Of a stretch of 64,000 nucleotides of DNA, positions 35,351 to 55,519 are shown piece after piece (the first letter of the stretch is position 1; every line of letters begins with the position of its first letter). The notes beneath the pieces are model-generated. The model worked only from the letters and a program-made list of their open reading frames with translations. It made no database searches and was not told the origin of the DNA. The DNA comes from Clostridia bacterium (lineage in GTDB: Bacteria; Bacillota; Clostridia; Oscillospirales; CAG-382), in contig JAFZDO010000001.1 in assembly GCA_017561145.1 (NCBI GenBank), forward strand, positions 2,935-66,934, given 5' to 3'. Made by a program: the position numbers and the translations under genes.

Positions 35351-35452
35351 ATGCACCACTCCGAAAATACTGTTTTCAATATTATATGGAAAATAATATA
35401 AAATAAATCCCAAAAAAGCGAAACTATTTCGCAAAACAATTAAATTTTTGTG

Positions 35453-35481
35453 TTGACATTGTCGATTTGCTGTGATATAAT
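35453..35481 (+). promoter_or_regulatory. sigma-A promoter of tRNA-Ser
   Basis: TTGACA (35453-35458), a 17-nt spacer, then TATAAT (35476-35481) with an extended TG. Confidence 0.65.
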
Positions 35482-35515
35482 AATCAAGCGCGATTGAGCG
35501 CGAAGTTAATAATAC

Positions 35516-35606
35516 GGAGAAGTCGCTTAGCTGGTCGAGGGCGCACGACTGGAAATCGTGTAACGGATAAAACCGTTCGAGAGTTCGAATCTCTCCTTCT
35601 CCGCCA
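35516..35606 (+). tRNA. tRNA-Ser (anticodon GGA), CCA encoded
   Basis: Manual fold. Acceptor GGAGAAG/CTTCTCC, anticodon stem CACGA/TCGTG with loop CTGGAAA, long variable arm AACGG-ATAAAA-CCGTT, T-arm GAGAG-TTCGAAT-CTCTC, then GCCA. Confidence 0.92.
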
Positions 35607-35610
35607 AACA

Positions 35611-35636
35611 AAAACCACCCAATCGGGTGGTTTTTT
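35611..35636 (+). terminator. terminator hairpin after tRNA-Ser
   Basis: AAAACCACCC-AATC-GGGTGGTTTTTT. Confidence 0.7.
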
Positions 35637-35647
35637 GTTTGGCTTTT

Positions 35648-35784
35648 GAAGAGATTCGAAGGGCGTAAGCCAAACAGTCCGGGGGACTGTTTGGGTAGCC
35701 CCGCGGAGCAGACCGCAACGGAAGAGGCGCGGAGCGCCGCTTGGAGTTGCATTGGGCTGCGGAGGAATCTCTCCTTCTCCGCCA
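35648..35784 (+). repeat. tRNA-3'-end-terminated structured element, Ser-type copy 1 (candidate ncRNA or att-like site)
   Basis: 137 nt and GC-rich. The last 20 nt (35765-35784, GAATCTCTCCTTCTCCGCCA) are identical to tRNA-Ser 35587-35606. The 5' AGAGATTC (35650-57) pairs with GAATCTCT (35765-72). There is an 11-bp hairpin with a GGG loop at 35670-35694, plus further helices GCAAC/GTTGC and GGCGC-GGA-GCGCC. Confidence 0.8.
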
Positions 35785-35788
35785 AAAC

Positions 35789-35820
35789 AAAAGGACAGGC
35801 AATGCCTGTCTTTTTGTTTT
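35789..35820 (+). terminator. second terminator hairpin after the duplicated tRNA 3' end
   Basis: AAAAG-GACAGGC-AAT-GCCTGTC-TTTTT. The flanks are the same as in the first terminator, but the stem sequence differs. Confidence 0.65.
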
Positions 35821-35826
35821 GGCGGA

Positions 35827-35974
35827 ATGAAGCGCACCTGACGGTGCATGAAGCATGAAGTCGCCTACGGCTATGAAGCGTGCCTTCGGCACATTAGGAA
35901 CGAAAAATGCGCTTCGCTTCATGCAAGCGTTAGCGAGTGCTTCATATTGGCGAAGCCAATGCTTCATTTTTCAT
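35827..35974. repeat. array of the heptamer ATGAAGC (x4, forward) and its complement GCTTCAT (x3-4), interleaved with short hairpins
   Basis: ATGAAGC occurs at 35827, 35848, 35855 (ATGAAGT) and 35873. GCTTCAT occurs at 35916, 35939 and 35961, with TTTTCAT at 35968. Local hairpins are GCACC-TGAC-GGTGC, GTGCC-TTC-GGCAC and ATTGGC-GAA-GCCAAT. Confidence 0.8.
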
Positions 35975-36002
35975 TGAAAATACAAAAAACTTATGATATA
36001 CT
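35974..36002 (+). promoter_or_regulatory. sigma-A promoter for the four-helix-bundle operon
   Basis: TTGAAA (35974-79), a 17-nt spacer, then TATACT (35997-36002) with an extended TG. Confidence 0.5.
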
Positions 36003-36024
36003 TCACTTGAAGGAAGGTGTTTAT

Positions 36025-36378
36025 ATGCGCAATGACAAATTATCCACGCAATCGATGGACTTCGCCGTTTCAATTATAAAACTTGTGAAATACTTAAAAG
36101 AAAGCAAAGAGCATATCATTTCCAATCAAATCGGAAGAAGCGGAACAAGCATAGGCGCGAATATCCGCGAGGCACAGTATGCGCATGGGAAAGCGGACTT
36201 TATTGCAAAATTGCAAATAGCCCTAAAAGAAGCCAATGAAACGGGATATTGGTTAGAATTGCTATACAAAACGAATTATATTACAGAAGATCAATATAAA
36301 GATTTAGATGCAGTTTGTACGGGTCTTCGTGCTATGTTAATTGCATCTATTAACACCGCTAAGGAGAATATGAAATGA
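36025..36378 (+). CDS. four-helix-bundle protein of the 23S rRNA intervening-sequence protein family (Avd-like fold)
   Basis: The ATG at 36025 follows GAAGGAAGG. The sequence FAVSIIKLVKYLKESKEHIISNQIGRSGTSIGANIREAQYAHGKADFIAKLQIALKEANETGYWLELL is typical of this family. The upstream part of the track ORF lies in the heptamer array. Confidence 0.75.
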   Translation: MRNDKLSTQSMDFAVSIIKLVKYLKESKEHIISNQIGRSGTSIGANIREAQYAHGKADFIAKLQIALKEANETGYWLELLYKTNYITEDQYKDLDAVCTGLRAMLIASINTAKENMK

Positions 36379-36953
36379 GGTTATACCACGGTTCTATATT
36401 TGCTAATATAACTGAACTGTTGGCGAATTCAACTTTACACGAAAACGCGAATCAAAAGGTTGTCTATCTTACTGACAATATTCCATATGCTCTGTTATAT
36501 ATTTGGGATTCAAACCGTAATTTTAAACAAGGCAAGCACGTTACCGCGTGGATTAAAGAAAACCAAGTATTCTATGAGGAACAATTCCAAAATCAATTGA
36601 GAACTTTCTATGACGGTGTCAGCGGATATTTATATGCGGTAAACAATACTACATCTTTTTCCCCCGTTAACAACCGAGAAGCCATGTGGTTTTCTCCTAA
36701 TAACACAAAAATCGATATAGTTAAATATATCCCGAACGTATACGATGAACTTTGTAAATATATAAATTCAGGCGAATTGAAAGTTATTCATTTCGAGGAT
36801 GTCGATAGCGAAAGAGTTAACGATTTGTATAATTGTATCGTAGATCGAATAATATCCAAGCACTTACTTGAGAACCCCGATGATTCGGACGCGGTTTTTT
36901 ATCAAAAATTTTTTCTTGAGGCATGGGAATTAGCTAAAAGCAAAAACGTATAA
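36375..36953 (+). CDS. hypothetical protein (N-terminal LYHGS motif)
   Basis: 192 aa with AT-rich codon usage and a start overlapping the upstream stop (ATGA). RLYHGS...VVYLT is only faintly reminiscent of H-Y-E ADP-ribosyltransferase-like folds, so no assignment is made. Confidence 0.4.
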   Translation: MRLYHGSIFANITELLANSTLHENANQKVVYLTDNIPYALLYIWDSNRNFKQGKHVTAWIKENQVFYEEQFQNQLRTFYDGVSGYLYAVNNTTSFSPVNNREAMWFSPNNTKIDIVKYIPNVYDELCKYINSGELKVIHFEDVDSERVNDLYNCIVDRIISKHLLENPDDSDAVFYQKFFLEAWELAKSKNV

Positions 36954-37011
36954 TCTTTCGATTGTTCAATTCTATACCTTCTATCATCTGTTTTATTCTA
37001 CCTTTACAAAC

Positions 37012-37057
37012 AAAAACCGCAATTCTGATACAAAAGAGTTGCGGTTTTTGTTTTTTT
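37012..37057 (+). terminator. intrinsic terminator
   Basis: AACCGCAA-N17-TTGCGGTT followed by a T-run. Confidence 0.6.
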
Positions 37058-37099
37058 ATGGTATAATAGAATTACAAAAAACTAAAGGAGGCATTTTCT

Positions 37100-37528
37100 A
37101 TGAAAATATTTAATCCCGCAGATTGTAAGGAACCACCTCGAGCCGATATGTTTTTACCTGATTTTTTAAAATATTTTGGTTTTTTTCTGGATGCTGTAGC
37201 AATAGTATTCTTAGTTGCAACATTTATTACACAAATTTGGGGATTAATTATAGGAGCGCTTATTTGTGGAGGACTTGGTGTCGCAGCATGGCTTTGTTGG
37301 AAAAATCAGACAGTTCGTATCATTGATGAGGATCGCTTTGAATACACTACTTTTTTAGGAAAAACGACCGTATATAATTTCTCAGATATAAAGGCTTTGC
37401 GTGTCAATCAAGATTCCATGACATTGATTTTAACAAATGGAAAAATACATATAGAATCTATGGTACGTATGTCACAAGCTCTTGTCGACAAAATAGATCA
37501 ATCAATCGAAAAAACAAGTAGTAATTAA
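37100..37528 (+). CDS. hypothetical two-TM membrane protein
   Basis: 142 aa with AGGAGG upstream. It has two adjacent hydrophobic helices, then a small soluble domain. Confidence 0.5.
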   Translation: MKIFNPADCKEPPRADMFLPDFLKYFGFFLDAVAIVFLVATFITQIWGLIIGALICGGLGVAAWLCWKNQTVRIIDEDRFEYTTFLGKTTVYNFSDIKALRVNQDSMTLILTNGKIHIESMVRMSQALVDKIDQSIEKTSSN

Positions 37529-37561
37529 AAAGTTTTGTATCAAAATTATGGTTATTAGCCA

Positions 37562-37596
37562 AAAAGAACAACCACCAAACGGTGGTTGTTTCTTTT
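37562..37596 (+). terminator. terminator-like hairpin preceding Ser-type copy 2
   Basis: AACAACCACC-AAAC-GGTGGTTGTT plus a T-run. It is preceded by GCCA, as at the true tRNA end. Confidence 0.6.
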
Positions 37597-37601
37597 TGTT
37601 C

Positions 37602-37731
37602 TGAAGAGATTCGAAGGGCGTAAGCCAAACAGTCCGGGGGACTGTTTGGTTAGCCCCGCGGAGCAGACCGCAACGGAAGAGGCGCGGAGCGCCGCTTGGA
37701 GTTGCATTGGGCTGCGAAGGAATCTCTCCTT
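37602..37731 (+). repeat. tRNA-3'-end-terminated structured element, Ser-type copy 2
   Basis: There are 2 substitutions relative to copy 1 over the shared 126 nt. The match to the tRNA-Ser 3' end is truncated to 13 nt (GAATCTCTCCTTC). Confidence 0.8.
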
Positions 37732-37749
37732 CGACATTTTTTGCGTTAC

Positions 37750-37778
37750 CTTGACAAAATAGCTAAACTGCTATAAAA
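37750..37778 (+). promoter_or_regulatory. probable sigma-A promoter for the 37810 gene
   Basis: TTGACA (37750-55), a 17-nt spacer, then TAAAAT (37773-78). Confidence 0.45.
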
Positions 37779-37809
37779 TAATATCATCAATCCCAAAGGA
37801 GGCAGAAAA

Positions 37810-38292
37810 ATGACGATTGAACAGGCGATATATTTTAAAGTTCTGATTTGCAACGGATACCCCGAAGAGTTGTTGAAATACATTGACACCGCTTTGGAAA
37901 CGCAGGATCCGCTAAGCGACATTGTTTTGGAGATGTCTTTTGCCGCAAATGACGAAGAAAAGCTGATTTCTCTATTAAACGAGCGCATCAACAGTGTAAA
38001 GCCCGAGGAAATCGACTTCGACGGCACTTTGTTCGATATGCTTCTGGCATTCTTCAAAAGAAAATACAGAGAAGAAAATATGCCAATTGATGAGCTTGTA
38101 TATCTTATGTATAGATTCTCGCTCGTTTATGAACCATGGGACAAATGGTGGAATGCTGCAACAAGTCGCCTTTGGCACGTAATGTATTATATGCAGGATT
38201 ACTATGAATTTGGCGACAGGAATGAATTTTTGAAGATGTTGGACGACTTTTTGGATAATAAGATACCTCCCGAATCTCCGTTTTTACGATAA
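37810..38292 (+). CDS. hypothetical small helical protein
   Basis: 160 aa with AAAGGAGG upstream and AT-rich codons. No family recognised. Its size and composition resemble orphan immunity-type cassette proteins (speculative). Confidence 0.45.
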   Translation: MTIEQAIYFKVLICNGYPEELLKYIDTALETQDPLSDIVLEMSFAANDEEKLISLLNERINSVKPEEIDFDGTLFDMLLAFFKRKYREENMPIDELVYLMYRFSLVYEPWDKWWNAATSRLWHVMYYMQDYYEFGDRNEFLKMLDDFLDNKIPPESPFLR

Positions 38293-38350
38293 GAGCAATC
38301 GCATTTTACAATTGAACAGTTTTTGCGAGAAAATTCATCATTGAAAATTC

Positions 38351-38383
38351 AAAACAACCACCCAATCAGGTGGTTGTTTTTTT
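38351..38383 (+). terminator. terminator-like hairpin preceding Ser-type copy 3
   Basis: AACAACCACCC-AATC-AGGTGGTTGTT plus a T-run. Confidence 0.6.
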
Positions 38384-38388
38384 GTTTT

Positions 38389-38514
38389 GAAGAGATTCGA
38401 AGGGCGTAAGCCAAACAGTCCGGGGGACTGTTTGGTTAGCCCCGCGGAGCAGACCGCAACGGAAGAGGTGCGGAGCACCGTTTGGAGTTGCATTGGGCTG
38501 CGGAGGAATCTCTC
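38389..38514 (+). repeat. tRNA-3'-end-terminated structured element, Ser-type copy 3
   Basis: There are 4 substitutions relative to copy 1 over 126 nt. Two of them are compensatory in the GGYGC-GGA-GCRCC hairpin. The tRNA-end match is truncated to 9 nt (GAATCTCTC). Confidence 0.8.
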
Positions 38515-38578
38515 GAAAAATTTTCCAGAATGTATTTCGAGGATATTTTTCTCTTCGCTTTTCATTTTCCGTTTTAAG

Positions 38579-38607
38579 TTGAAAAGCAATTGGCATTGTG
38601 CTATAAT
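38579..38607 (+). promoter_or_regulatory. sigma-A promoter for the serine hydrolase-namZ operon
   Basis: TTGAAA (38579-84), a 17-nt spacer, then TATAAT (38602-07) with an extended TG (TGCTATAAT). Confidence 0.6.
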
Positions 38608-38628
38608 ACCAATAAAGAGGTGAAACGT

Positions 38629-39621
38629 ATGGATATAAACCGACTCCAAGCGCTTTTACAAAGAGGGCTTGACGAGGGCGCATATACCTGCTATGCGGCG
38701 GCGGTCGGATGCAAGGACGAAATATTTTTGCGCTCGTTCGGCGGTAAGAGGGCGATTTTGCCCCAAGAAGCCGAAATGACCGAGGACGTGCTTTTTGATA
38801 TGGCTTCGCTTTCGAAGCTTATCGGCACTACAATGGCGGCATTGAAGCTTATTGAATGCGGCAAGCTTCGGCTCGACAACAAAATGAGCGACTTTTTTAG
38901 AGGTTGCCACGGTAAGGAAAACACAACTGTTTTTCAGTTGATGACGCACACCTCGGGCATAAAGGCGCACTTCCCTCTTTGGCTTCGCGGAATCGATCCG
39001 AGCGATGCCGAAAAGGAAATTCTGCGCGAGCCGTTTGGATATACTCCCGAAAGCAACGCCGTTTATACCTGTATGGGCTATATTTTGCTTGGTCGGATTC
39101 TTGAAAGGATAGAAGGTCAACCGCTTGACAAGATAGTACAAAAATACGTTTTCGACCCGTTGTCGATGAAAAACAGCTTTTATAATCCGCCGAGCAACAA
39201 AGCTTGCGCCGCTACCGAAAAAAGCGCGGCTACGGGCGAGATAATTTGCGGAAGCGTACACGACGAAAACGCCGATTTTTTAAACGGAATTTCGGGCAAC
39301 GCGGGCGTTTTTTGCAGTCTTGACGATTGCATTACCTTTGCGAAAATGATTTCAAACGGGGCAAAGGACTATCTTCCCGAGGAGCTTTTCAGTGCGGCTA
39401 TACACGGCTACACCCCTCAGTTTGAAGAAAACCGCGGGCTCGGCTTTAATATCGTCGGCAACCGTATCGGACACACGGGATTTACGGGTACCGCGATATA
39501 CGTTGGAAAGGAAAGCGGTGTTTTTGCAATTTTGCTTACAAACCGCGTTCACCCGACGAGAAACAATGGCAAGCTTTTCCCGATAAGAAACGAATGGCAC
39601 AGACAGATTTTCGGTGAATGA
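38629..39621 (+). CDS. beta-lactamase-family serine hydrolase (AmiE/YbbE-like candidate)
   Basis: The ATG at 38629 follows AAAGAGG. It has the SxxK motif MASLSKLIG, plus HTSG and HTGFTGT motifs typical of class-C-like serine hydrolases. Confidence 0.7.
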   Translation: MDINRLQALLQRGLDEGAYTCYAAAVGCKDEIFLRSFGGKRAILPQEAEMTEDVLFDMASLSKLIGTTMAALKLIECGKLRLDNKMSDFFRGCHGKENTTVFQLMTHTSGIKAHFPLWLRGIDPSDAEKEILREPFGYTPESNAVYTCMGYILLGRILERIEGQPLDKIVQKYVFDPLSMKNSFYNPPSNKACAATEKSAATGEIICGSVHDENADFLNGISGNAGVFCSLDDCITFAKMISNGAKDYLPEELFSAAIHGYTPQFEENRGLGFNIVGNRIGHTGFTGTAIYVGKESGVFAILLTNRVHPTRNNGKLFPIRNEWHRQIFGE

Positions 39622-40803: not shown

Positions 40804-42609
40804 TTAGTTAAATTGTGAATTATAAAGCGTGCTGTAGAAGCCGCCCTTTTTGAGCAATTCGTCGTGATTGCCGATCTCGGTGATTCTGCCGTTCTGAAGA
40901 ACGATTATCTTGTCGGCATTTTGAATTGTCGAAAGTCGGTGCGCGATGATAAAGCAGGTTCTGCCCTTCATCAGCTCGGTCATTGCCTCTTGTATCTTTA
41001 TCTCGGTGCGAGAGTCGACGTTCGATGTCGCTTCGTCGAGAATAAGCATTTGCGAATCGGCTATCATCGCACGTGCGATGGTGATAAGCTGGCGCTGACC
41101 CTTTGAAATGTTAACGCCGTCGTCGGTAAGCACGGTGTTATATCCGTCGGGCAGGCTTTCGATAAAGCTATCTATCCTTGCGGCGCGCGCGGCTGCCTTA
41201 ACCTCTTCAAGCGTTGCGCCCTCGCGGCCGTACGCGATATTTTCATAGATCGTACCGCAAAACAGCCAGGTGTCCTGAAGCACCATCGTGTAGGCTTTTC
41301 TTAACGATTCGCGCGTGATATCCCTCTCGTCGATGCCGTCGACGGTTATTTTGCCGCCGTTTACGTCGTAAAAGCGCATAAGAAGCGAGATGATCGTCGT
41401 TTTACCTGCGCCCGTCGGGCCTACTATTGCGATGGTTTTGCCTTGAAGCGCATCAAACGTTATGCCGTGGAGTATCTCCTTTTCGGGGGTATAGCCGAAG
41501 GTAACGTCTTGAAATTCAACGTCGCCCTTTGCTTTGTGAAGCGTGATAGCGTCGTCCGAATCGGTTTTCTCGGGTTGCTCGTCGAGGATCGCAAAAACGC
41601 GGTCGGCGGCGGAAAATGCCGATTGGAATTCCGAAATGATGTTTGCAAATTCGTTTATCGGGCCTGCAAACTTGCGCGAATACTGAACGAACTGCGCAAC
41701 ACCGCCGAGCGAAATGAAGAACAGCGAGCCGACAGCCGCTTCGCCGCTTTGCGAATAGAGATAAAGAATTCCGCCGAACATCGTGACGAGCGAGATCGAA
41801 ATGTTGTTGATAAAGTTGACCGAGGGGCCCATTGCCGCACCGTAATAATCGGCTTCGTAATAGGCGTCCATCGAATCGGTATTGCGCTTATTGAAGCGCG
41901 AGCCTATTTCGTTTTCTCGGTTATATGCGCGTATAGAGCCGCAACCGGAAAGCATTTCCTCGGCATATCCGTTCAATTCGCCGAGCTTTTTCGAGCGTTT
42001 TCTGAAAAGCGGACGCACACGCTTTGCGCGGTAGCGCGTAAAGAGTATCGACGCAGGCACAGTTACAAGGAACACCGCGATAAGCGGCTTTGAGATGTTC
42101 CACATAAACACAAGCGAGCCGATAACGGTATACAAGCTCGTCATTACCTGCACAAGATCGTGCGAGAGCGTCGAATTGATAGTGTCGATATCATAGGAAA
42201 TATGGCTTATGATGTCGCCTGTCGGGTGAGTATCAAAATATCCGACGGGCAAGGAGGTAAGCTTTTCAAAAAGCTGTTTTCTCATCGTATATACTATTTT
42301 TTGGCTGAGCTTTATCATAATGACCGCCAAAAGATAGGATATCACGGCGGATGCGATATAGCACAAAAGCATATAGACGAGATTTTCGGCGACGACCGCC
42401 GTATCAACTCCGCTCTCCGATGCTATCGCATCGATAGCAAGACCCGAATATTTGGGGCCCATAAGCGAAAGCTGGTTTGCAAAAAGAGTCATGATCACAG
42501 CAGGTATAAAGATATACCAATATTTCAAAACGTATCCGCAGAGCCTTAAAAGGATGCCTTTGGTTTTTCTTTCCTGCTTGCCTGCTTCGGGCTTATTCAA
42601 CGAAAGCAC
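40804..42609 (-). CDS. ABC exporter, fused permease/ATPase subunit
   Basis: 601 aa with six N-terminal TM helices. Walker A is GPTGAGKTT, the signature is ISKGQRQ, and Walker B is LILDEATS. Confidence 0.85.
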   Translation of the reverse strand: MLSLNKPEAGKQERKTKGILLRLCGYVLKYWYIFIPAVIMTLFANQLSLMGPKYSGLAIDAIASESGVDTAVVAENLVYMLLCYIASAVISYLLAVIMIKLSQKIVYTMRKQLFEKLTSLPVGYFDTHPTGDIISHISYDIDTINSTLSHDLVQVMTSLYTVIGSLVFMWNISKPLIAVFLVTVPASILFTRYRAKRVRPLFRKRSKKLGELNGYAEEMLSGCGSIRAYNRENEIGSRFNKRNTDSMDAYYEADYYGAAMGPSVNFINNISISLVTMFGGILYLYSQSGEAAVGSLFFISLGGVAQFVQYSRKFAGPINEFANIISEFQSAFSAADRVFAILDEQPEKTDSDDAITLHKAKGDVEFQDVTFGYTPEKEILHGITFDALQGKTIAIVGPTGAGKTTIISLLMRFYDVNGGKITVDGIDERDITRESLRKAYTMVLQDTWLFCGTIYENIAYGREGATLEEVKAAARAARIDSFIESLPDGYNTVLTDDGVNISKGQRQLITIARAMIADSQMLILDEATSNVDSRTEIKIQEAMTELMKGRTCFIIAHRLSTIQNADKIIVLQNGRITEIGNHDELLKKGGFYSTLYNSQFN

Positions 42610-44314
42610 CTCCCATCTGGGATTCGCTTATTTCACGGTATTCCTCACAGCTGTCGAGCAGATCGTTATGATTGCCCATACCGATAATTTCGCCCTCGTC
42701 GAGCACGATGATCATATCGCAATCCTTTACCGAGCTTACGCGCTGAGCAACCGTAATAACCGTCGTTTCGCCGAGCGATTCCGAAAGCGCGCTTCTTAAA
42801 GCGGCGTCGGTTTTATAGTCGAGCGCCGACGAGGAATCGTCGAGTATCAGTATCTCGGGCTTGGAGGCAAGCGCACGCGAAATAAGTATCCTTTGCTTCT
42901 GTCCGCCCGAAATATTGCTTCCGTGCGGTGTGAGAAGGTGGTCGTATCCTTCGGCAAAATCGGTGATAAAGCCGTCTGCCTGTGCGATCCTTGCGGCGGC
43001 TATAACCGACTCGTCATCGATCTCCCTGCCGAAGCGGATGTTTTCCGCGATAGTATCGGCATAAAGGAAGTCCTGCTGCATCGCAGAGCCGAACATCGCG
43101 TAAAACCGTGATTTTTCAATCGTTTTTATGTTTTCGCCGTTGATAAATATCGAGCCGTTGCTCACGTCGTAAAAGCGAAGCAAAAGCTTAATAAGCGTCG
43201 TCTTGCCCGAGCCTGTCGCGCCGATTATTCCCAACCGACCGCCCTTGGGGAGCGAAAACGAAATGCTTTTAAGGTTATCCTTTACACCCTTGTAGGAAAA
43301 GGAAACGTTATCGAATACGATATGGTCACCGTCAGCCTTATCGGGGAATTCGCTCTTGTCGTAAACCTTAATGTCCTCGTCGGCATCGAACACCTCGCTT
43401 ATACGTCTTGCCGATGCGGCACACTTCGTGTACATAACGAACATTCGCGTTACCGACATCATCGCCATCGAAATGAGCGTGAAATACTGCATAAAAGCAA
43501 CGACTGTTTCGGGGTTGGAAAGCCCCGACTCGACTCTGCCGCTTGCCAATGCGATAACGGCGACCGAGCCGACGTTCATCAAAACCGTCATTATCGGGTT
43601 GACGCTGCCCATTACGACGCCTGCGCGCGTTTCGTCCTTGATAAGCGCGGAATTTACCGCATCGTAACGGCGATGCTCGTAATCGGTCTTTGAAAGCGCC
43701 TTGATAACGCGTATTCCCTGCGCATCCTCACGCACTACACGTATCATCCCGTCGACAGATTTCTGAACCCTTGTATAAAGAGGCACGCCCTTTTTCGAAA
43801 TGAAATAAACCGTTATGAAAATAAAAGGAAGAACGGCTATCATCGCAAGCGCAAGATATGCATCCATAAACAGAGTGATGCCGATGCCGCCGATAAGCAT
43901 TATCGGAGCACGCACGCCGAGGCGTTGCATCATATTTACAAAGTGGTGGACGTTGTACGTATCGGTCGTGATACGCGATTCGAGCGAGGGGATCGTGAAT
44001 TTATCGGTCTGGGACGCAGAAAGCCGAAGGGTCTTTATAAACAGATCCTTTCGCATGCTTTCGGCAAAATTCCGCGAAACACGCGCCGCCATTCGGTTTG
44101 CGACGATATTGCAAACGCAGGCGATAACCGCGCAGACGAGCATTGCACCACCCCAAAAAAGAATGTCTTTTACCGATTTTGTAATGACGTTTTTAAGTAT
44201 ATGGGTGAGTATGTACGGAATCAAAAGCTCGACGACCGTGCCTGCGGTTTTTATTAAAAACCCAACGGTCATCCGTCGGTAGAATCCGCGAAGATATTTA
44301 AAGAGTATTTTCAT
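42593..44314 (-). CDS. ABC exporter, fused permease/ATPase subunit (heterodimer partner)
   Basis: 573 aa. Walker A is GATGSGKTT, the signature is ISGGQKQR, and Walker B is LILDDSSS. It overlaps its partner by 17 nt. Confidence 0.85.
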   Translation of the reverse strand: MKILFKYLRGFYRRMTVGFLIKTAGTVVELLIPYILTHILKNVITKSVKDILFWGGAMLVCAVIACVCNIVANRMAARVSRNFAESMRKDLFIKTLRLSASQTDKFTIPSLESRITTDTYNVHHFVNMMQRLGVRAPIMLIGGIGITLFMDAYLALAMIAVLPFIFITVYFISKKGVPLYTRVQKSVDGMIRVVREDAQGIRVIKALSKTDYEHRRYDAVNSALIKDETRAGVVMGSVNPIMTVLMNVGSVAVIALASGRVESGLSNPETVVAFMQYFTLISMAMMSVTRMFVMYTKCAASARRISEVFDADEDIKVYDKSEFPDKADGDHIVFDNVSFSYKGVKDNLKSISFSLPKGGRLGIIGATGSGKTTLIKLLLRFYDVSNGSIFINGENIKTIEKSRFYAMFGSAMQQDFLYADTIAENIRFGREIDDESVIAAARIAQADGFITDFAEGYDHLLTPHGSNISGGQKQRILISRALASKPEILILDDSSSALDYKTDAALRSALSESLGETTVITVAQRVSSVKDCDMIIVLDEGEIIGMGNHNDLLDSCEEYREISESQMGGAFVE

Positions 44315-44736
44315 TTTACTTCCTCGATCTCGATCGCCTTGTTAAGCATTTTGTCAAGTATTTCGTGGAAGCGCTTCAATTCCTCCGCGTCGATGCCCTC
44401 GGCGAGTCTTGAATTCCAGTCAACGGTGATATTCTTGACCTCGGGCAGGATATCAAACATCTTTTGCGTCGGGAAAACCAAGGTTTCGCGCTTGTCCGAA
44501 TCGCTCGTGCGGCGTTCTACGTAGCCTTCAAGCTCTAAATGCGCAAGATGTCGCGTGACGTTGGATTTGTTGATACAAAGGTATTGCACAAGCTTTTCCT
44601 GCGGAAGTCCGGGGTTCTTGCATATCGCAAGAACGTAGCTGTGGTAAATTCCCGCAAGGCCGACGGTTGACTTTTCGGTGCGGTAATTCGCCTCGCATCG
44701 GCTGATAATGTTCATTTTTCGCATTATTGTTGCCAT
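44311..44736 (-). CDS. MarR-family transcriptional regulator
   Basis: 141 aa with the winged HTH LPQEKLVQYLCINKSNVTRHLAHLELEGYVERR. The stop overlaps the ABC gene start. Confidence 0.8.
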   Translation of the reverse strand: MATIMRKMNIISRCEANYRTEKSTVGLAGIYHSYVLAICKNPGLPQEKLVQYLCINKSNVTRHLAHLELEGYVERRTSDSDKRETLVFPTQKMFDILPEVKNITVDWNSRLAEGIDAEELKRFHEILDKMLNKAIEIEEVK

Positions 44737-44837: not shown

Positions 44838-44866
44838 TTGACAAACAAAAAAAGATGTGATATATT
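44838..44866 (+). promoter_or_regulatory. sigma-A promoter of tRNA-Glu
   Basis: TTGACA (44838-43), a 17-nt spacer, then TATATT (44861-66) with an extended TG. Confidence 0.6.
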
Positions 44867-44886: not shown

Positions 44887-44961
44887 GGCCTGTTAGTCAA
44901 GTGGTCAAGACGTCGCCCTCTCACGGCGAAGGCAGGGGTTCGACTCCCCTACGGGTCACCA
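44887..44961 (+). tRNA. tRNA-Glu (anticodon CTC), CCA encoded
   Basis: Manual fold. Acceptor GGCCTGT/ACGGGTC (two G-T pairs), anticodon stem TCGCC/GGCGA with loop CTCTCAC, T-arm GGGG-TTCGACT-CCCC, then ACCA. It closely resembles Bacillus-type tRNA-Glu. Confidence 0.88.
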
Positions 44962-44964
44962 CGA

Positions 44965-44999
44965 AAAACAAACCTCACTTTATGTGGGGTTTGTTTTTT
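44965..44999 (+). terminator. terminator hairpin after tRNA-Glu
   Basis: AAACAAACCTCAC-TTTAT-GTGGGGTTTGTTT plus a T-run. Confidence 0.7.
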
Positions 45000-45011
45000 G
45001 TCTTGCAAATT

Positions 45012-45149
45012 GGGAGTCGAAGGGCGCGTGTTGAATGACAGTCCGGGGGACTGTCAGACCGCGCCACCGCTCCGCCCCGGGGTCCCCGAAAATGAACGAA
45101 GTGAGTTTTTGGGGTGGACGTAGGCGGGCGACTCCCCTACGGGTCACCA
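45012..45149 (+). repeat. tRNA-3'-end-terminated structured element, Glu-type
   Basis: 138 nt. The last 21 nt (45129-45149, CGACTCCCCTACGGGTCACCA) are identical to tRNA-Glu 44941-44961. The 5' GGGAGTCG (45012-19) pairs with CGACTCCC (45129-36). It shares the core TCGAAGGGCG and the hairpin ACAGTCC-GGG-GGACTGT with the Ser-type element. Confidence 0.8.
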
Positions 45150-45150
45150 G

Positions 45151-45187
45151 AAAACAAACCTCACTTTATGTGGGGTTTGTTTTTTGT
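45151..45187 (+). terminator. second copy of the tRNA-Glu terminator hairpin
   Basis: Nearly identical to 44962-44999. Confidence 0.65.
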
Positions 45188-45192
45188 ATAAC

Positions 45193-45227
45193 AAAAAAAC
45201 AGACGGTTTCCCGTCTGTTTTGTTTTT
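45193..45227 (-). terminator. terminator for the convergent membrane-protein gene
   Basis: CAGACGG-TTTC-CCGTCTG flanked by A- and T-runs. Confidence 0.6.
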
Positions 45228-45231: not shown

Positions 45232-45963
45232 TTAAAGACCTTTTGCTCTGAGCTTTCTGTCCTTGTTGTCCTGAATCTTGCCGTATACAGCGTAGCCGAT
45301 ATACATACCGAGAATGCAAAGAGGACCAACGGTGGTATAGAAGTTGAGAGTAAGCATGGTGGAAAGGTAGTCAAGGAGAACGATAACACAATTTACGATC
45401 ACTGCAAAGATAACGCCGGACAAGATCTTGAAGATCTTGGAAGAAACGTTTTCGTGGTTTTCCCAAGTGAGGATCATAAGGTTGCCTGCGAATGCAAGGA
45501 TGATGAAGAACAGGATGTACGAGAAGTAGCCGAAGAGCATTTCAGCAGGCTTTTCGCTGAACGCCTGAGGAAGTGTCATCTTATATTCAACAGAGTTGAT
45601 CGAAGGATATTCAGCGGTTTTGGAATCGGGCGATGCATTGAGGTTGGGGATCATATCGAGAACGAGGTAGGAGCCGACAACCAAAACGATGAAAAGCAAC
45701 ACGAGAAGAGTACGTACAAAGCCTTGGATCTTAACTGCTTTTCTCTTGACCGCCTTGTAGATGATAGAAGGAATAGCAAGGACCAACGCCAAGCCGAAAG
45801 CGATTCCAACGTATTTTGCAGCAACACCGAAGAGGTAGCCGATTTCAATAGCGGATTCGGTATTCAAAACAACGAATATAGCAATCAAAGCAATTACTGC
45901 TGCTAAAATCAATATAAGTTTTATATGCTTGCGCAAACTCGATATTACATTAGACATGATCAA
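45232..45963 (-). CDS. hypothetical polytopic membrane protein
   Basis: 243 aa with about 6 hydrophobic helices. No family recognised. Confidence 0.5.
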   Translation of the reverse strand: MIMSNVISSLRKHIKLILILAAVIALIAIFVVLNTESAIEIGYLFGVAAKYVGIAFGLALVLAIPSIIYKAVKRKAVKIQGFVRTLLVLLFIVLVVGSYLVLDMIPNLNASPDSKTAEYPSINSVEYKMTLPQAFSEKPAEMLFGYFSYILFFIILAFAGNLMILTWENHENVSSKIFKILSGVIFAVIVNCVIVLLDYLSTMLTLNFYTTVGPLCILGMYIGYAVYGKIQDNKDRKLRAKGL

Positions 45964-53349: not shown

Positions 53350-53829
53350 ATGCTTATATTGGGCATCGACCCGGGGCTGGCGACGATCGGCTTTGGGTTG
53401 GTTTTGAAAAGCGGCGATAAATACCGCGCAATTGAATACGGCGCGATAACCACCGCGCCCAAGCAGATGATCGAAAAGAGGCTTGAAGAAATTTACGACT
53501 CGATGGTCGAGCTTATTACCAAATGCAAGCCCGACTGTATGGTTATCGAGGAGATATTCTTTAACAACAACATCACCACCGCTATCGACGTGTCGATGGC
53601 AAGAGGCGTTATCTTGCTTGCGGCACAAAAATGCGGGATAGATATTTACGAATACACACCGCTGGAGGTAAAAAGCTCGGTCGTCGGTTACGGCAGAGCC
53701 GAAAAGCAGCAGGTTCAGTATATGGTCCGCTTGATGCTTAACCTTAACGAAACGCCGAAGCCCGACGACACCGCCGACGCGCTTGCGCTTGCGCTTTGCC
53801 ACGGCACAAGGATTACAAATTACCGATAA
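53350..53829 (+). CDS. ruvC: crossover junction endodeoxyribonuclease RuvC
   Basis: MLILGIDPGLATIGFG (catalytic Asp), VIEEIFF, and C-terminal DTADALALALCH. Confidence 0.9.
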   Translation: MLILGIDPGLATIGFGLVLKSGDKYRAIEYGAITTAPKQMIEKRLEEIYDSMVELITKCKPDCMVIEEIFFNNNITTAIDVSMARGVILLAAQKCGIDIYEYTPLEVKSSVVGYGRAEKQQVQYMVRLMLNLNETPKPDDTADALALALCHGTRITNYR

Positions 53830-53839
53830 GGAGAAGAAA

Positions 53840-54439
53840 ATGATACATTTTATACACGGAACTCTCGCTTCTCTTACAGCCGAATACGCCGTTATCGATT
53901 GCGGCGGAGTCGGATTTAAAATGGGAATATCGGCAACGACTGCACAAAAGCTTTCCGCAAAATCGGGAAAGGACGTGCTTTTATACACGTATATGGCGGT
54001 CAGCGAAGACAATATTGCGCTTTACGGTTTTTCGGAGGAGGACGAGCTTAACCTTTTCACAAGGCTTATCTCGGTTTCGGGCATCGGCCCCAAGGCGGGT
54101 ATTTCGATACTCGGCACCTTCTCGCCCGACGAGCTTCGCTCTGCCGTTGCAAGCGGTGACGCAAAAACCATTTCGCGCGCACCCGGTATCGGTCTTAAGA
54201 CAGCGCAAAAGCTTATTATCGAGCTTAAGGATAAAATAGCGGACGACGGTATGACGTTTACCGTTTCGGAAACGAATAAGGACCCCGAAAAGATAAGTCA
54301 GGTCATCGATACTCTTGCTCTTTACGGTTTTCCGCGCGCAAAGGTTGCGGATACCTTAAAGAAGCTCGATTCCTCGCTCCCGCTCGAGGAGCTTATTGCC
54401 CAGACCTTGCGAATTTTGGGAAAGGAGGCAGGACGATAA
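53840..54439 (+). CDS. ruvA: Holliday junction DNA helicase subunit RuvA
   Basis: The ATG at 53840 follows AAGGAGAAG. The sequence has MIHFIHGTL.., and HhH motifs ISVSGIGPKAGISIL and APGIGLKTAQKLI. Confidence 0.9.
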   Translation: MIHFIHGTLASLTAEYAVIDCGGVGFKMGISATTAQKLSAKSGKDVLLYTYMAVSEDNIALYGFSEEDELNLFTRLISVSGIGPKAGISILGTFSPDELRSAVASGDAKTISRAPGIGLKTAQKLIIELKDKIADDGMTFTVSETNKDPEKISQVIDTLALYGFPRAKVADTLKKLDSSLPLEELIAQTLRILGKEAGR

Positions 54440-55519
54440 ATGCCTATTAACTCGAAAATTCCAGACTATTCCGATGATTTCGATTTCGAAAGCCGTATCA
54501 CTGGCGCGGAATTCTCTGCCGAGGATATCGAAAACGAATTTTCCTTGCGCCCCAAGACGCTTAACGAATACGTCGGTCAGCAAAAGGTCAAGGACAACCT
54601 TTCGATATTTATAAAAGCCGCCGCTTCACGCGGGGACTCGCTCGACCACGTTTTGCTTCACGGCCCTCCCGGTCTCGGTAAGACCACGCTTTCCTGCATA
54701 ATCGCGGGCGAGCTTGGCGTTAATCTTAAGGTAACGAGCGGCCCTGCCATCGAAAAGGCAGGCGACCTTGCCGCGTTGCTTACCACACTTGAAAGAAACG
54801 ATATTTTATTTATCGACGAAATACACCGTCTTCCCCGTCAGGTCGAAGAGGTGCTCTACCCCGCGATGGAGGATTTTGCGCTTGACCTTATGATGGGCAA
54901 GGGTCCCTCGGCTCGCTCGATACGTATTCCGCTTAAGCCCTTTACGCTTATCGGCGCAACGACGAGAGCGGGACAGCTGTCCTCTCCTCTTCGTGACAGA
55001 TTCGGTATGTCGTTCAGACTGGAGCTTTATTCTCCCGAGGATCTCGCACTTATCATCACCCGCTCGGCAGGAATTCTCGGCGTTCCGATAACCGCGGACG
55101 GCGCTTATGAGATCGCGCTACGTTCGAGAGGAACTCCTCGTATTGCCAACAGATTTTTAAAGAGAGTACGCGATTTTGCGATAGTCGAAGGAAACGGAGT
55201 TATCGATTTCGATATCACTCGCAAGGCGCTCGATGCGCTCGAGGTAGATGCTTTGGGACTCGATTCGGTCGACAGAAGGATGCTCACCGCGATCATCAAG
55301 CATTTCAACGGCGGTCCCGTTGGCTTGGAAACGCTTGCGGCGGTCATCGGCGAGGAGGCAATAACGCTCGAGGACGTTTACGAGCCTTATCTGCTTCAGC
55401 TCGGATTTCTTAACCGCACACCGCGCGGAAGATGTGCGACTGCAGGCGCTTACCGTCACCTTGCACTTGAGGTGCCGATGGGTATGACCGAGCAGATAAG
55501 CTTTACCGACGAAAATTAA
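54440..55519 (+). CDS. ruvB: Holliday junction DNA helicase subunit RuvB
   Basis: [12 protein letters not shown], Walker [10 protein letters not shown], Walker B LFIDEIHR, and sensor GTPRIANR. Confidence 0.93.

What the first reader, a model, noticed from the sequence alone, without database searches (positions are those of the whole stretch)
44962..45187. The same architecture recurs at tRNA-Glu with a ~57-nt direct repeat (tRNA 3' end plus terminator) flanking a related element
Seen directly: tRNA-Glu(CUC) (44887-44961) is followed by its terminator. A 138-nt element follows at 45012-45149, whose last 21 nt (CGACTCCCCTACGGGTCACCA) equal tRNA 44941-44961. A near-identical second copy of the terminator comes next. 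The block 44941-44999 is thus repeated at 45129-45186 with only a small indel in the A-run. No cargo gene lies between the repeats. Two different tRNA loci 9 kb apart carrying the same tRNA / terminator / X / tRNA-3'-end / terminator layout argues against a one-off duplication. It argues for an active process or a selected function.
Basis: seen in the sequence. Interest (0 to 1): 0.75.

Follow-up and report, generated by a model that had tools for sequence, protein, structure and literature searches.

The report
Structured element copying tRNA 3' ends
Just downstream of tRNA and tmRNA genes in a group of gut and rumen Clostridia sits a previously undescribed ~100-145-base non-coding element that folds into a conserved three-armed structure and ends in an exact copy of the neighbouring tRNA's last 20-21 bases; it forms tandem arrays and serves as a landing site for small gene cassettes.

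Summary
tRNA-Glu(CUC) (44887-44961) is followed by a terminator, a 138-nt element "X" (45012-45149) ending in the tRNA's last 21 nt, and a second copy of the terminator. The window holds four X copies. A strict pattern found 34 more loci in rumen/gut Clostridia MAGs, behind 10 tRNA species and tmRNA.

X is a real structure on the tRNA-sense strand, a three-way junction. P1 pairs a locus-specific 5' arm with positions 56-65 of the tRNA copy. The acceptor 3' strand plus NCCA stays free. P2 and P3 are conserved hairpins. In 37 copies 99.2% of cells pair and 21 of 29 pairs show compensatory changes.

It matches no Rfam family and has no promoter. No recombinase, transposase or reverse transcriptase lies in the 64 kb. 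No hit came from phage, plasmid or viral collections. Units form tandem arrays whose distal copies are decayed. Strain comparisons show a second integrase-less element (Gut-1-like comb RNA plus a four-helix-bundle gene) inserted exactly after the CCA of X's tail.

Best reading (about 40%): a folded single-strand, attachment-site-like mobile or duplicative module aimed at tRNA 3' ends. Main rival (about 30%): a read-through non-coding RNA. The mechanism is unresolved, and the family looks new.

The parts
44887..44961 (+). tRNA-Glu(CUC) gene. A strong sigma-70-type promoter lies at 44838-44866.
   Evidence: ARAGORN; Rfam tRNA at 65.5 bits; promoter scan 11/12.
44941..45001 (+). Direct repeat copy 1: tRNA positions C56 to CCA (44941-44961) plus terminator 1 (A-run, hairpin and T-run, 44962-45001).
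   Evidence: (D1, I2).
45002..45011 (+). Linker. It is not conserved between species and is 8-15 nt long.
45012..45021 (+). X 5' arm GGGAGTCG plus AA. This is the reverse complement of tRNA positions 54-63. The arm forms P1 with 45129-45136.
   Evidence: Inverted repeat I6, 10/10; P1 covariation; P1 length.
45022..45065 (+). P2 hairpin GGGCGCG...CAGTCC-GGG-GGACTG...CGCGCC. It is 100% identical in 7 of 9 Glu loci.
45066..45128 (+). J2/3 plus P3 hairpin. In this copy P3 carries an extra palindromic mini-insert (about 45079-45124) that is absent from sister strains (L042, L032).
45129..45149 (+). X tail: an exact copy of tRNA-Glu positions 56-76 (CGACTCCCCTACGGGTCACCA). The first 8 nt pair with the arm. 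The last 13 nt (acceptor 3' strand plus ACCA) are unpaired.
45150..45187 (+). Terminator 2, a near-identical copy of terminator 1. It is the end of direct repeat copy 2 (45129-45187).
   Evidence: D1, I4.
45190..45227 (.). Bidirectional terminator shared with the convergent 241-aa gene (45232-45957, - strand). It marks the flank of the hot spot.
   Evidence: conserved in L042, L043, L047, L049 and L050.
35516..35606 (+). tRNA-Ser(GGA), the partner locus.
35648..35784 (+). X1 (Ser-type scaffold): arm GAAGAGATTCGAA, and a full 20-nt tRNA-Ser tail at 35765-35784. Terminator A precedes it (35607-35642) and terminator B follows it (35785-35820).
37603..37732 (+). X2. Terminator C precedes it (37561-37600). 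The tail is truncated to 13 nt.
38389..38514 (+). X3. Terminator D precedes it (38351-38388). The tail is truncated to 9 nt. Its differences from X1 keep the pairing (C-G to U-A, and G-C to G.U).
35785..37561 (+). Cargo element inserted after the CCA of X1's tail. It consists of its own terminator, a hairpin comb module, a 23S_rRNA_IVP/TIGR02436 four-helix-bundle gene (36026-36378), two unknown ORFs, and a right end GGTTATTAGCCA (37550-37561).
   Evidence: homologous elements in L042, L047, L025 and L034.

Best explanation
X is the conserved core of a small, non-coding, modular genetic element that is specific for the 3' ends of tRNA and tmRNA genes in a clade of rumen and gut Clostridia.

Shown:
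- On the tRNA-sense strand X folds into a three-way junction.
- P1 pairs a locus-specific 5' arm (GGG-NN-TCG type) with positions 56-65 of a copy of the neighbouring tRNA's 3' end. The acceptor 3' strand plus NCCA (10-13 nt) stays single-stranded.
- P2 and P3 are conserved hairpins.
- The unit always sits 49-66 nt behind a ...CCA plus terminator. In intact copies it is itself followed by a terminator.
- Units occur in tandem. Distal copies are truncated.
- The tail is used as a secondary tRNA 3' end by a second integrase-less element.

Inferred:
- The element acts as a folded single strand, ssDNA or possibly RNA, and works as an attachment-site-like module.
- P1 rebuilds a double-stranded copy of the target segment of the tRNA gene, from the T-loop 3' half through the T-stem 3' strand. 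The free tail gives a homologous toehold.
- An enzyme encoded elsewhere can then recombine or copy the unit next to the cognate tRNA. Candidates are a tyrosine recombinase acting as on integron attC or CTX-phage attP, or an HUH-type single-strand nuclease.
- This event duplicates the segment from C56 to CCA plus the terminator, and the tRNA stays intact.
- Moving to a new tRNA needs a new tail plus only 1-2 compensatory changes in the arm, opposite N59 and N60.
- Gene conversion between the ~60-nt repeats keeps tail and terminator identical to the tRNA copy.
- Arrays of such tails then accumulate cargo, which gives integron-like cassette arrays such as the one behind tRNA-Ser in this window.
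For: - Family and layout: 34 loci from the genome collection, plus others reached through neighbouring genes. In nearly all loci where both tRNA end and tail could be read, the tail equals the adjacent tRNA or tmRNA 3' end, starting sharply at C56 or G57.
- Structure: RNAalifold predicts 29 pairs, 10 with double changes. On 37 copies 99.2% of cells pair and 21 of 29 pairs have compensatory changes. No shuffle out of 500 reaches this, and slid controls give 37-48% paired.
- Strand: G.U/U.G wobbles are common (U.G in 26 of 37 copies at one P3 pair) and would be C.A mismatches on the other strand. The structure is therefore strand-specific.
- P1 is a cis pairing. In L023 the tail differs from the neighbouring tRNA, and the arm matches the tail.
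- Selection: P2 is 89-100% identical across Glu loci whose terminator and linker are 65-98% identical to the window. X3 differs from X1 only by pair-preserving changes.
- No promoter precedes X.
- Mobile-element behaviour: tandem arrays exist (L017 has 3 units). In the other arrays (window Ser, L005, L012, L018, L026, L007) the tRNA-proximal unit is intact and the distal ones are truncated.
- Scaffold variants do not track tRNA identity or species. L002 (Arg) and L004 (Leu) scaffolds differ at 1 of 71 nt, while L004 and L009, both Leu, differ at about 8.
- Patchy distribution: one genome has X at tRNA-Ser but not at tRNA-Glu (L059 and L050). Relics occur in L049 and L063.
- Order swap: tRNA, X, cargo in L020 against tRNA, cargo, X in L034.
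- Cargo is inserted exactly after the CCA of X's tail in strains that share an identical neighbour protein (L042 against L043).
Against: - No enzyme has been identified. All 52 ORFs of at least 110 aa in the 64-kb window are core or unknown genes. None is an integrase, transposase, HUH protein or reverse transcriptase. The downstream genes in the other loci I inspected look like ordinary chromosomal genes (AlaRS, CTP synthase and cca by their sequences), but they were not profiled.
- No empty-site versus filled-site pair differing only by X was found among close strains. No circular or free form is known.
- P1 (6-11 bp) is shorter than the recombination stems of attC or CTX attP, and only one half-site is double-stranded.
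- X is found at the same tRNA-Glu in at least 7 species. That also fits a vertically inherited functional gene.
- Identical terminators can be explained by gene conversion, so they do not prove recent insertion.
- ssDNA and RNA cannot be told apart from sequence.
- The alignment used was fitted to the model, which inflates the pairing percentages.
- My search pattern fixed TCGAAGGGCG and the P2 tip, so the conservation of those stretches is partly due to how the copies were found.
Confidence: 0.4

Rival explanations
1. X is a structured non-coding RNA made by read-through of the tRNA terminator and ended by its own terminator. It would work as RNA. One option is a mimic of the tRNA's T-stem and acceptor 3' strand plus NCCA, acting as a decoy, sponge or substrate for an enzyme that handles tRNA and tmRNA 3' ends. 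Another is a cis element of tRNA 3' trailers. The tail would stay identical to the tRNA because the function is tRNA-specific.
For: - Strand-specific covariation with G.U pairs.
- Always the same orientation as the tRNA, 49-66 nt behind it, behind very strong promoters, and followed by a terminator in intact copies.
- Conserved at tRNA-Glu across at least 7 species, with P2 invariant.
- The partner set (tRNAs plus tmRNA) shares 3'-end biochemistry.
- Copies separated from the tRNA by cargo tend to decay (L049, L063).
Against: - X has no promoter of its own and sits directly behind a terminator.
- Tandem arrays of up to 3 units, truncated distal copies and relics are not expected for a needed RNA gene.
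- X2 and X3 keep their structure but have lost the tail and lie behind cargo genes.
- The element is absent from some tRNAs of a genome that has it at others (L050 and L059).
- No known RNA class or protein partner fits. There is no Rfam hit even at E<5.
Confidence: 0.3
2. X plus tail is a host-retained landing pad or decoy. It would be a spare tRNA 3' end plus terminator, presented by a tRNA-like fold. Elements that target ...CCA-terminator junctions would then insert there instead of next to the real tRNA. Such elements include the Gut-1-comb/four-helix-bundle cassettes. The result would be a cassette platform.
For: - Cargo sits after X's tail in the window Ser array and in L013, L025, L029, L031, L032, L042 and L047.
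- The same kind of cargo sits directly after the tRNA where X is absent (L049, L050, L060).
- L042 against L043 shows insertion exactly at the tail's CCA.
Against: - Cargo inserted directly after the tRNA brings its own terminator and leaves the tRNA intact, so the benefit of a decoy is unclear.
- L034 and L022 have cargo between the tRNA and X although X is present.
- This reading does not explain why a conserved three-way junction is needed.
Confidence: 0.12
3. X is a natural guide RNA: a scaffold plus a 3' guide of about 20 nt identical to the tRNA gene directly after the universal GGTT(C) of the T-loop, which would act as a PAM/TAM-like motif. It would serve a protein encoded elsewhere that binds tRNA genes and directs insertion just past the terminator, about 60 bp from the T-loop.
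For: - The architecture of scaffold plus 3' target-identical segment resembles TnpB omega-RNA or Cas12 crRNA logic.
- The identity starts sharply after GGTT(C). X's own copy lacks the TT (GGG|CGA), so it would not be a self-target.
- The unit starts 60-75 bp from T55.
- Arm and tail address opposite strands of the same site.
Against: - No TnpB, IscB, Cas or IS110-like gene lies in the window.
- Half of the guide is sequestered in P1.
- No promoter is present.
- The real tRNA gene always carries motif plus target, so a nuclease would be lethal. Only a binding or insertion function could work.
- Nothing links X to any protein.
Confidence: 0.08
4. X copies are inert scars: attR/attL remnants of conventional integrase-carrying islands or prophages that once sat in these tRNA genes, or a chance tandem duplication.
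For: A direct repeat running from the T-loop to the CCA is the classical footprint of T-loop-targeting tyrosine integrases, by established knowledge (Williams, Nucleic Acids Res 2002; recalled, not re-read here). tRNA and tmRNA genes are the classical targets.
Against: - Compensatory covariation in three helices, and conservation far above the flanks.
- The same scaffold sits behind 11 different RNA genes in 31 assemblies.
- No integrase or island is nearby.
- No hits in IMG/VR, INPHARED phages or PLSDB plasmids.
Confidence: 0.03

Closest known systems
Integron attC sites / CTX-phage folded attP (single-strand recombination sites)
   Same: Both are non-coding elements of about 60-140 nt whose function lies in intrastrand folding of one specific strand. 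Both have terminal complementary arms, and long attC sites have a branched central part. G.T/G.U pairs are tolerated. Both occur in arrays with small accessory genes between copies. For CTX, the enzyme is not carried by the element.
   Different: - X has no R''/R' (RYYYAAC/GTTRRRY) boxes.
- No intI is present; as far as I recall, integrons have not been reported in Firmicutes.
- The scaffold sequence is highly conserved, whereas attC conserves structure only.
- The stem is only 6-11 bp, and its sequence is dictated by the neighbouring tRNA.
- The cargo does not carry X (L042 against L043), so X behaves like a resident site, not a cassette-borne one.
tRNA/tmRNA-gene-targeting integrative elements and their integrase-less derivatives (CIMEs, satellite islands)
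   Same: Both give a direct repeat of the tRNA 3' part that starts in the T-loop. The tRNA is kept intact by a carried copy. Both show tandem accretion at the same tRNA, and tmRNA is among the targets.
   Different: The X unit is 100-190 bp with no gene at all. No integrase lies anywhere near. The conserved part is an intrastrand structure with covariation rather than dsDNA protein-binding arms. A 5' arm complementary to the copied tRNA segment has no counterpart in these elements.
IS200/IS605-type single-strand elements, their non-autonomous PATEs, and TnpB omega-RNA
   Same: Both are top-strand-specific hairpins. In both, a short sequence 5' of a hairpin base-pairs with the sequence at the element/flank junction. 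The scaffold is followed by a flank-identical 3' segment, which is the omega-RNA logic. Neither gives a classical short target-site duplication.
   Different: No TnpA or TnpB is present. X's pairing is 6-11 bp rather than 4. A ~59-bp duplication of the target is present. There is no similarity to any Rfam model.
IS110/IS1111 bridge (seek) RNAs and TIGR-Tas guide RNAs
   Same: A structured RNA carries two segments that address opposite strands of one DNA target. Specificity can be changed with a few base changes.
   Different: In X the two segments are complementary to each other and overlap the same 10 bp. No donor-binding loop and no recombinase gene are present. There is no evidence that X is expressed.
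Gut-1 RNA motif (Rfam RF01706; Weinberg et al. 2010, PMC2864571)
   Same: It occurs in the same loci and the same organisms. Like X, it is an orphan structured motif from gut metagenomes of unknown function.
   Different: Gut-1 matches the neighbouring comb module of the cargo element (L022, L029), not X.

Membership tests
Any Rfam 15 RNA family | Covariance-model score at or above the family's gathering threshold. | tested here: not met
   Only tRNA hits appear in the window at gathering thresholds. At E<5 over 35400-38700 nothing lines up with an X copy beyond chance-level, sub-threshold hits that mostly sit on the adjacent terminators and lie far below gathering scores. Eighteen related loci scanned at gathering thresholds gave only tRNA, tmRNA, RNase P and Gut-1.
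Integron cassette / attC | An integron integrase (intI) and attI adjacent to the array. | tested here: not met
   Pfam scan of all 52 ORFs of at least 110 aa in the 64-kb window found no Phage_integrase or any other recombinase.
Integron cassette / attC | R''/R' core sites RYYYAAC ... GTTRRRY at the ends of the folded site. | tested here: not met
   The ends of X are GGGAGTCGAA and CGACTCCC (Glu), and AGAGATTCGAA and GAATCTCT (Ser). They change with the tRNA.
Integron cassette / attC | The site travels with the cassette, one attC per cassette at its 3' end. | tested here: not met
   L042 equals L043 plus a cargo inserted after X's tail, and that cargo has no X of its own. The window Ser array looks cassette-like but is better read as a tandem X array with later insertions.
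Integron cassette / attC | A strand-specific imperfect hairpin conserved in structure. | tested here: met
   Three-way junction with covariation and G.U pairs on one strand.
tRNA-integrating genomic island / prophage / CIME | A direct repeat of the tRNA 3' part flanking the element. | tested here: met
   A 59-61-nt repeat in the window. A 20-21-nt tail identical to the tRNA or tmRNA end, or differing at one position, in about 25 of the loci.
tRNA-integrating genomic island / prophage / CIME | A tyrosine or serine integrase in the element, or, for CIMEs, recognisable remains of an ICE or island. | tested here: not met
   The 188-bp unit holds no gene. No integrase lies in the window. No hits in viral, phage or plasmid collections.
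IS200/IS605 PATE / TnpB omega-RNA | An associated TnpA (Y1 HUH) or TnpB gene, or sequence or structure similarity to known ends or omega-RNAs. | tested here: not met
   No Y1_Tnp or OrfB_IS605 domains in the window. The rest of each genome could not be searched.
IS110 bridge RNA | A DEDD/RuvC-like IS110 recombinase next to the RNA, and separate target-binding and donor-binding loops. | tested here: not met
   No such ORF is present; the only RuvC in the window is the housekeeping ruvCAB operon at 53350-55519. The fold is a simple three-way junction.
Retron ncRNA (msr-msd) | A reverse transcriptase gene immediately downstream, and terminal a1/a2 pairing. | tested here: not met
   Terminal pairing is present (P1), but no RVT domain occurs anywhere in the window.
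MITE | Constant terminal inverted repeats plus a short target-site duplication. | tested here: not met
   The inverted arms differ from locus to locus and follow the tRNA. The duplication is about 59 nt.
Expressed small RNA | Its own promoter, or a defined processed transcript. | tested here: inconclusive
   No promoter-like site lies between the terminator and X. Transcript data cannot be obtained with these tools.

The most novel reading that the evidence does not exclude
X is the nucleic-acid component of a programmable, protein-in-trans system that recognises tRNA and tmRNA genes by base pairing. The arm would address one strand and the tail the other strand of positions 56-76. The system would insert DNA at the ...CCA/terminator junction. 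If so, it is a natural, retargetable, guide-directed insertion platform that builds integron-like cassette arrays in Clostridia without any integron integrase.
Probability: 0.15. Interest if true: 0.95.

Novelty: categorically new. Interest (0 to 1): 0.8.

Why it matters
If X is mobile, it would be a new way of targeting tRNA genes. A 100-nt folded element would carry a copy of its target, need only one or two base changes to move to another tRNA, and be served by an enzyme not yet identified.

X would also explain how small accessory-gene cassettes pile up behind tRNA genes in gut Clostridia, a group in which, as far as I recall, integrons have not been reported.

If X is instead an RNA, it is a widespread, strongly constrained orphan RNA that displays the 3' strand of its neighbouring tRNA. 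That would point to an unknown step in tRNA or tmRNA 3'-end biology.

Either way it gives a concrete handle on the orphan Gut-1 motif and on the mobile behaviour of the '23S rRNA intervening-sequence' four-helix-bundle genes. A covariance model, a partner list and polymorphic loci are now available for follow-up.

A practical note: X copies break metagenome assemblies, since contigs end at X3, and they seed spurious ORF calls.

Tried and rejected
- Rfam at gathering and at permissive thresholds gave no family for X.
- An IMG/VR pattern scan and BLAST against INPHARED phages and PLSDB plasmids found nothing.
- Coding reading. An ORF starting at the ATG in GAATGACAG (MTVRGTVRPRH...) runs through X in several loci. 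It has no ribosome-binding site, it is absent from scaffold variants that lack the ATG, and the region shows RNA-type covariation. A database search with this pseudo-peptide found no called protein (one search failed on length). Rejected.
- A promoter for X was not found.
- A pseudo-T-arm hairpin (GGG-CGANN-CCC) at the scaffold/tail junction, as an alternative to P1, is not supported in L023 or L029.
- Hammerhead, twister or HDV-like ribozyme cores: no conserved junction motifs by inspection.
- A K-turn in the P2 internal loop is present only in one scaffold subtype.
- The arm as a direct copy of the T-stem 5' strand plus loop was rejected, because the reverse complement of the 3' half fits 10/10 against 7/10.
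It returned only 5 loci: one near-identical to the window and four from an unrelated X-less organism.
- Exact-protein look-ups for MarR and the beta-lactamase-fold gene returned the same arrangement as the window, or contigs that break at X.
- Literature searches for a described equivalent found none.
- PADLOC found no defence-system hits for the four cargo proteins. NCBIfam named only the four-helix-bundle gene (TIGR02436) and nothing for the other three cargo ORFs or the 241-aa neighbour.
Full report
**1. Observation**

ARAGORN and Rfam place tRNA-Glu(CUC) at 44887-44961 and tRNA-Ser(GGA) at 35516-35606. These are the only two tRNAs in the window. The following features come after tRNA-Glu:

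| Feature | Coordinates |
|---|---|
| Terminator hairpin | 44962-45001 |
| Linker (10 nt) | 45002-45011 |
| Element X | 45012-45149 |
| Second terminator | 45150-45187 |
| Bidirectional terminator of the convergent 241-aa gene | 45190-45227 |

- The last 21 nt of X (45129-45149) are identical to tRNA positions C56 to A76 (44941-44961).
- The direct repeat is 44941-45001 against 45129-45187.
- The core CAGTCCGGGGGACTG occurs four times on the + strand, at 35675, 37630, 38416 and 45039. Only 0.57 matches (both strands, up to 3 mismatches) are expected by chance. The window therefore holds four X copies, three of them behind tRNA-Ser.

**2. The family**

A strict pattern (TCGAAGGGCG..AGTCCGGGGGACT) found 34 loci in the GTDB species-representative genomes. 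All are rumen or gut Clostridia, Oscillospiraceae or 'Eubacteriales' MAGs.

The layout is always: RNA gene, terminator, short linker, arm, scaffold, copy of the gene's 3' end, terminator.

The upstream gene is one of the following:
- tRNA-Tyr, Arg(CCT), Arg(ACG), Ser(GGA), Ser(TGA), Leu(CAA), Trp, Glu(CUC), Gln(CUG) or Gly(CCC)
- tmRNA, confirmed by Rfam at 152 bits in L011 and L015

Other constants:
- The copied block starts sharply at C56 or G57 and runs to CCA, 20-21 nt.
- The distance from the gene's CCA to TCGAA is 49-66 nt.
- The minimal element is 103 nt including arm and tail (alignment A2).
- The window's Glu copy is longer because P3 carries an extra palindromic insert. Sister strains lack this insert.

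**3. X is a structure on the tRNA-sense strand**

- Single-sequence folds give z = -3.8.
- RNAalifold on 21 minimal copies gives a three-way junction with 29 pairs, 10 of them with double changes.
- A covariance model (R1) recovered 46 copies in these loci. Further copies turned up in loci reached through neighbouring genes.
- On 37 aligned copies, 99.2% of cells pair and 21 of 29 pairs show compensatory changes. No shuffle out of 500 reaches this. Slid controls give 37-48% paired.
- The caveat is that this alignment was fitted to the model.
- Wobble pairs are frequent. U.G occurs in 26 of 37 copies at one P3 pair, and G.U occurs in P1. Non-standard cells are rare. On the opposite strand these wobbles would be C.A mismatches.

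P1 has these properties:
- It is 6-11 contiguous bp.
- It corresponds to positions 56-65 of the tail, which are the T-loop 3' half and the T-stem 3' strand.
- The free 3' overhang of 10-13 nt is the acceptor 3' strand plus NCCA.

P1 is a cis pairing. In L023 the tail differs from the neighbouring tRNA-Ser(TGA) at three positions, and the arm matches the tail.

The arm is essentially GGG-NN-TCG, with NN opposite N59 and N60. Moving between most tRNAs therefore needs only one or two compensatory changes.

**4. Selection**

Nine tRNA-Glu loci were compared with the window. Two of them (the window itself and L041) are near-identical.

| Segment | Identity to the window |
|---|---|
| P2 | 100% in seven loci, 89% in two |
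| Tail | 95-100% |
| Terminator plus linker | falls to 65-86% |

X3 differs from X1 by a C-G to U-A double change, a G-C to G.U change and one loop change.

My search pattern fixed TCGAAGGGCG and the P2 tip. Invariance there is therefore partly due to ascertainment. Model hits outside the pattern (L017 and L022, first copy in each) show that the P2 tip covaries: CAGUCC/GGACUG becomes GUGUC/GACAC or CGUGCC/GGCACG, with the GGG loop kept.

**5. Context**

- All 52 ORFs of at least 110 aa in the window were scanned against Pfam.
- They are core chromosomal genes (FtsK, RecD2, RuvABC, arginine biosynthesis, ABC transporters, TruA and others) or unknowns. None is an integrase, transposase, HUH protein, reverse transcriptase, TnpB or Cas.
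- By inspection of their sequences, genes downstream of X in other loci look like ordinary chromosomal genes, for example AlaRS, CTP synthase and cca. They were not profiled.
- No promoter-like site precedes X. The tRNA promoters score 11-12 of 12.
- X does not occur in IMG/VR, INPHARED or PLSDB.
- No paper describing it was found.

**6. Dynamics**

*Tandem arrays.* L017 has three full units. In L005, L012, L018, L026, L007 and the window's Ser array the proximal unit is intact and the distal ones are truncated. Some have lost the 3' part of X, others have lost the tail.

*A second element.* This element ("B") consists of:
- its own terminator
- a hairpin comb module, which reaches the Rfam Gut-1 threshold in L022 and L029; Gut-1 is an orphan human-gut motif (PMC2864571)
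- a promoter
- a PF05635/TIGR02436 four-helix-bundle gene
- variable small genes, which by sequence look GNAT-like, kinase-like or unknown

B sits immediately after a ...CCA:
- after X's tail in the window Ser array and in L013, L025, L029, L031, L032, L042 and L047
- after the tRNA itself in L034, L049, L050 and L060

*The decisive strain pair.* L043 and L042 encode the identical 241-aa neighbour protein.
- L043 reads tRNA-Glu, terminator, X, tail, terminator copy, like the window.
- L042 has B inserted exactly between the tail's CCA and that terminator copy.

*Other comparisons.*
- L020 and L034 show the two modules in opposite order behind tRNA-Trp.
- One genome (contig JAZPDW010000047) has X behind tRNA-Ser (L059) but not behind tRNA-Glu (L050).
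- L049 and L063 keep only relics of X.
- The two terminator copies co-vary between strains. Both read CTCCAC in L042 and both read CCTCAC in L043. This indicates ongoing gene conversion between the ~60-nt repeats. Identical terminators therefore do not by themselves date an insertion.

*Scaffold variants.* They do not follow tRNA identity or species. The L002 (Arg) and L004 (Leu) scaffolds differ at 1 of 71 nt, while the two Leu loci L004 and L009 differ at about 8.

**7. Interpretation**

*What is shown.*
- X is a real, strand-specific, selected three-way-junction element.
- It is tied to tRNA and tmRNA 3' ends, it is duplicative, and it is patchy in distribution.
- Its tail is a target for another integrase-less element.

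*What is inferred.* X acts as a folded single strand.
- P1 reproduces as a duplex the segment 56-65 of the tRNA gene.
- The free tail is homologous to the rest of the gene's 3' end.
- That is the geometry expected of a folded attachment site (integron attC, CTX attP) or of a single-strand transposon end, served by an enzyme encoded elsewhere.
- Recombination at the T-loop, or insertion at the CCA/terminator junction, would add one unit next to the tRNA and leave the tRNA intact.
- This fits the intact-proximal, decayed-distal pattern.
- I put this at about 0.4.

*The main rival*, at about 0.3, is a read-through non-coding RNA that displays the tRNA's 3' strand.
- It fits the orientation, the flanking terminators and the conservation at tRNA-Glu.
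- It does not easily fit the arrays, the relics, the tail-less copies that still keep their structure, or the patchy occupancy.

*Minor alternatives* are a host-retained landing pad (about 0.12) and a true guide RNA for an unseen protein (about 0.08). Inert att scars or a chance duplication are effectively excluded by the covariation.

**8. Comparison with known systems**

X works most like a folded single-strand recombination site. It fails the membership tests for attC:
- no intI
- no R boxes
- the cargo does not carry X

It shares the T-loop-to-CCA repeat with tRNA-integrating islands. It lacks any integrase or island.

It shares the logic of scaffold plus flank-identical 3' segment with TnpB omega-RNAs. 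It shares two segments addressing opposite strands with bridge and TIGR RNAs. It has none of their proteins, and there is no evidence of expression.

I therefore rate it as lying outside known kinds. The caveat is that the partner enzyme, if any, may turn out to belong to a known superfamily.

Noticed in passing
window 35821-36010; L025, L013, L031, L032, L042, L047, L049, L050, L059; L022 5947-6170; L029 1313-1429; L063: A hairpin 'comb' module lies upstream of four-helix-bundle (PF05635/TIGR02436) genes. Its left half repeats a short word followed by a small hairpin 3-4 times. Its right half repeats a hairpin followed by the complementary word. The word differs between copies (ATGAAGC, GATGATAT, GTGAAAT, TATATCATCA, AATGATG). 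The GTGAAAT variant reaches the Rfam Gut-1 (RF01706) threshold, which links this orphan motif to a mobile-looking gene cassette.
   Followed up: partly
window 35785-37561; L042, L047, L034, L050, L060: The comb plus four-helix-bundle element has no recombinase. It always begins with its own terminator directly after a ...CCA, either of a tRNA or of X's tail. It ends in a short NCCA-like motif (GGTTATTAGCCA, GGTTACTATTAGGCA, GGTTGTGCCA, ...CCATAACCA). Some right ends also carry a T-arm-like GAGAGTTCGAAT about 45 nt before that motif (L060, L022, L063). Its cargo varies between strains; by sequence it looks GNAT-like, kinase-like or unknown.
   Followed up: partly
window 45079-45124; L007, L031, L043 (inside P3); L021 (inside P2); L029 about 1370-1420 (free-standing): A palindromic mini-insert of about 45 nt (GGGGTCCCCGAAAATGA...TTTTTGGGGT...) is present or absent between sister strains inside a hairpin loop of X. 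It also occurs elsewhere. It looks like a tiny mobile hairpin in its own right.
   Followed up: no
window 37736-38388 and 37008-37053: The 160-aa gene (37810-38292) has its own promoter and lies between the truncated tail of X2 and terminator D plus X3, like a cassette. A further strong terminator at 37008-37053, with no X behind it, separates ORF192 from ORF142 inside the cargo. None of the three unknown ORFs has a significant Pfam, NCBIfam or PADLOC hit; the 160-aa protein has only a sub-threshold Pfam match (Replitron_C, E=0.0085, 16.9 bits against a cut-off of 27).
   Followed up: partly
L043/L044 against window 40804-44736: In strains carrying protein P0003, NamZ is directly followed by tRNA-Glu. 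The MarR plus two-ABC-exporter operon that separates them in the window is absent. This is an indel of about 4 kb next to the tRNA promoter.
   Followed up: no
L056-L058 (contig ends 144 nt upstream of the gene homologous to window 38629): Three independent short-read assemblies break at X3. X copies act as assembly-breaking repeats. Gene callers also place spurious ORFs over them, for example the 146-aa 'gene' over X1 in L054.
   Followed up: no
L063/L064, about 70 nt after the second terminator: The relic arm GAAGAGATTCG fits the CTCTC allele of tRNA-Ser(GGA). The resident tRNA has the CCCAC allele. The tRNA, or the whole proximal segment, has therefore been replaced since X was acquired.
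   Followed up: no
L060 about 5390-5470 (reverse-complement coordinates) and L022 240-335: A long CT-rich/GA-rich hairpin (TTCTTTTCACTTTTCTCTTTTCG...GAGAAAAGATAAGAGAGAAAAGAG) replaces the comb module upstream of a second, divergent four-helix-bundle gene.
   Followed up: no
L009, L025 (and L004): The tRNA-Leu(CAA)-X locus lies next to a convergent gene that looks, by its sequence, like the CCA-adding enzyme gene in two species. This is probably only synteny.
   Followed up: no
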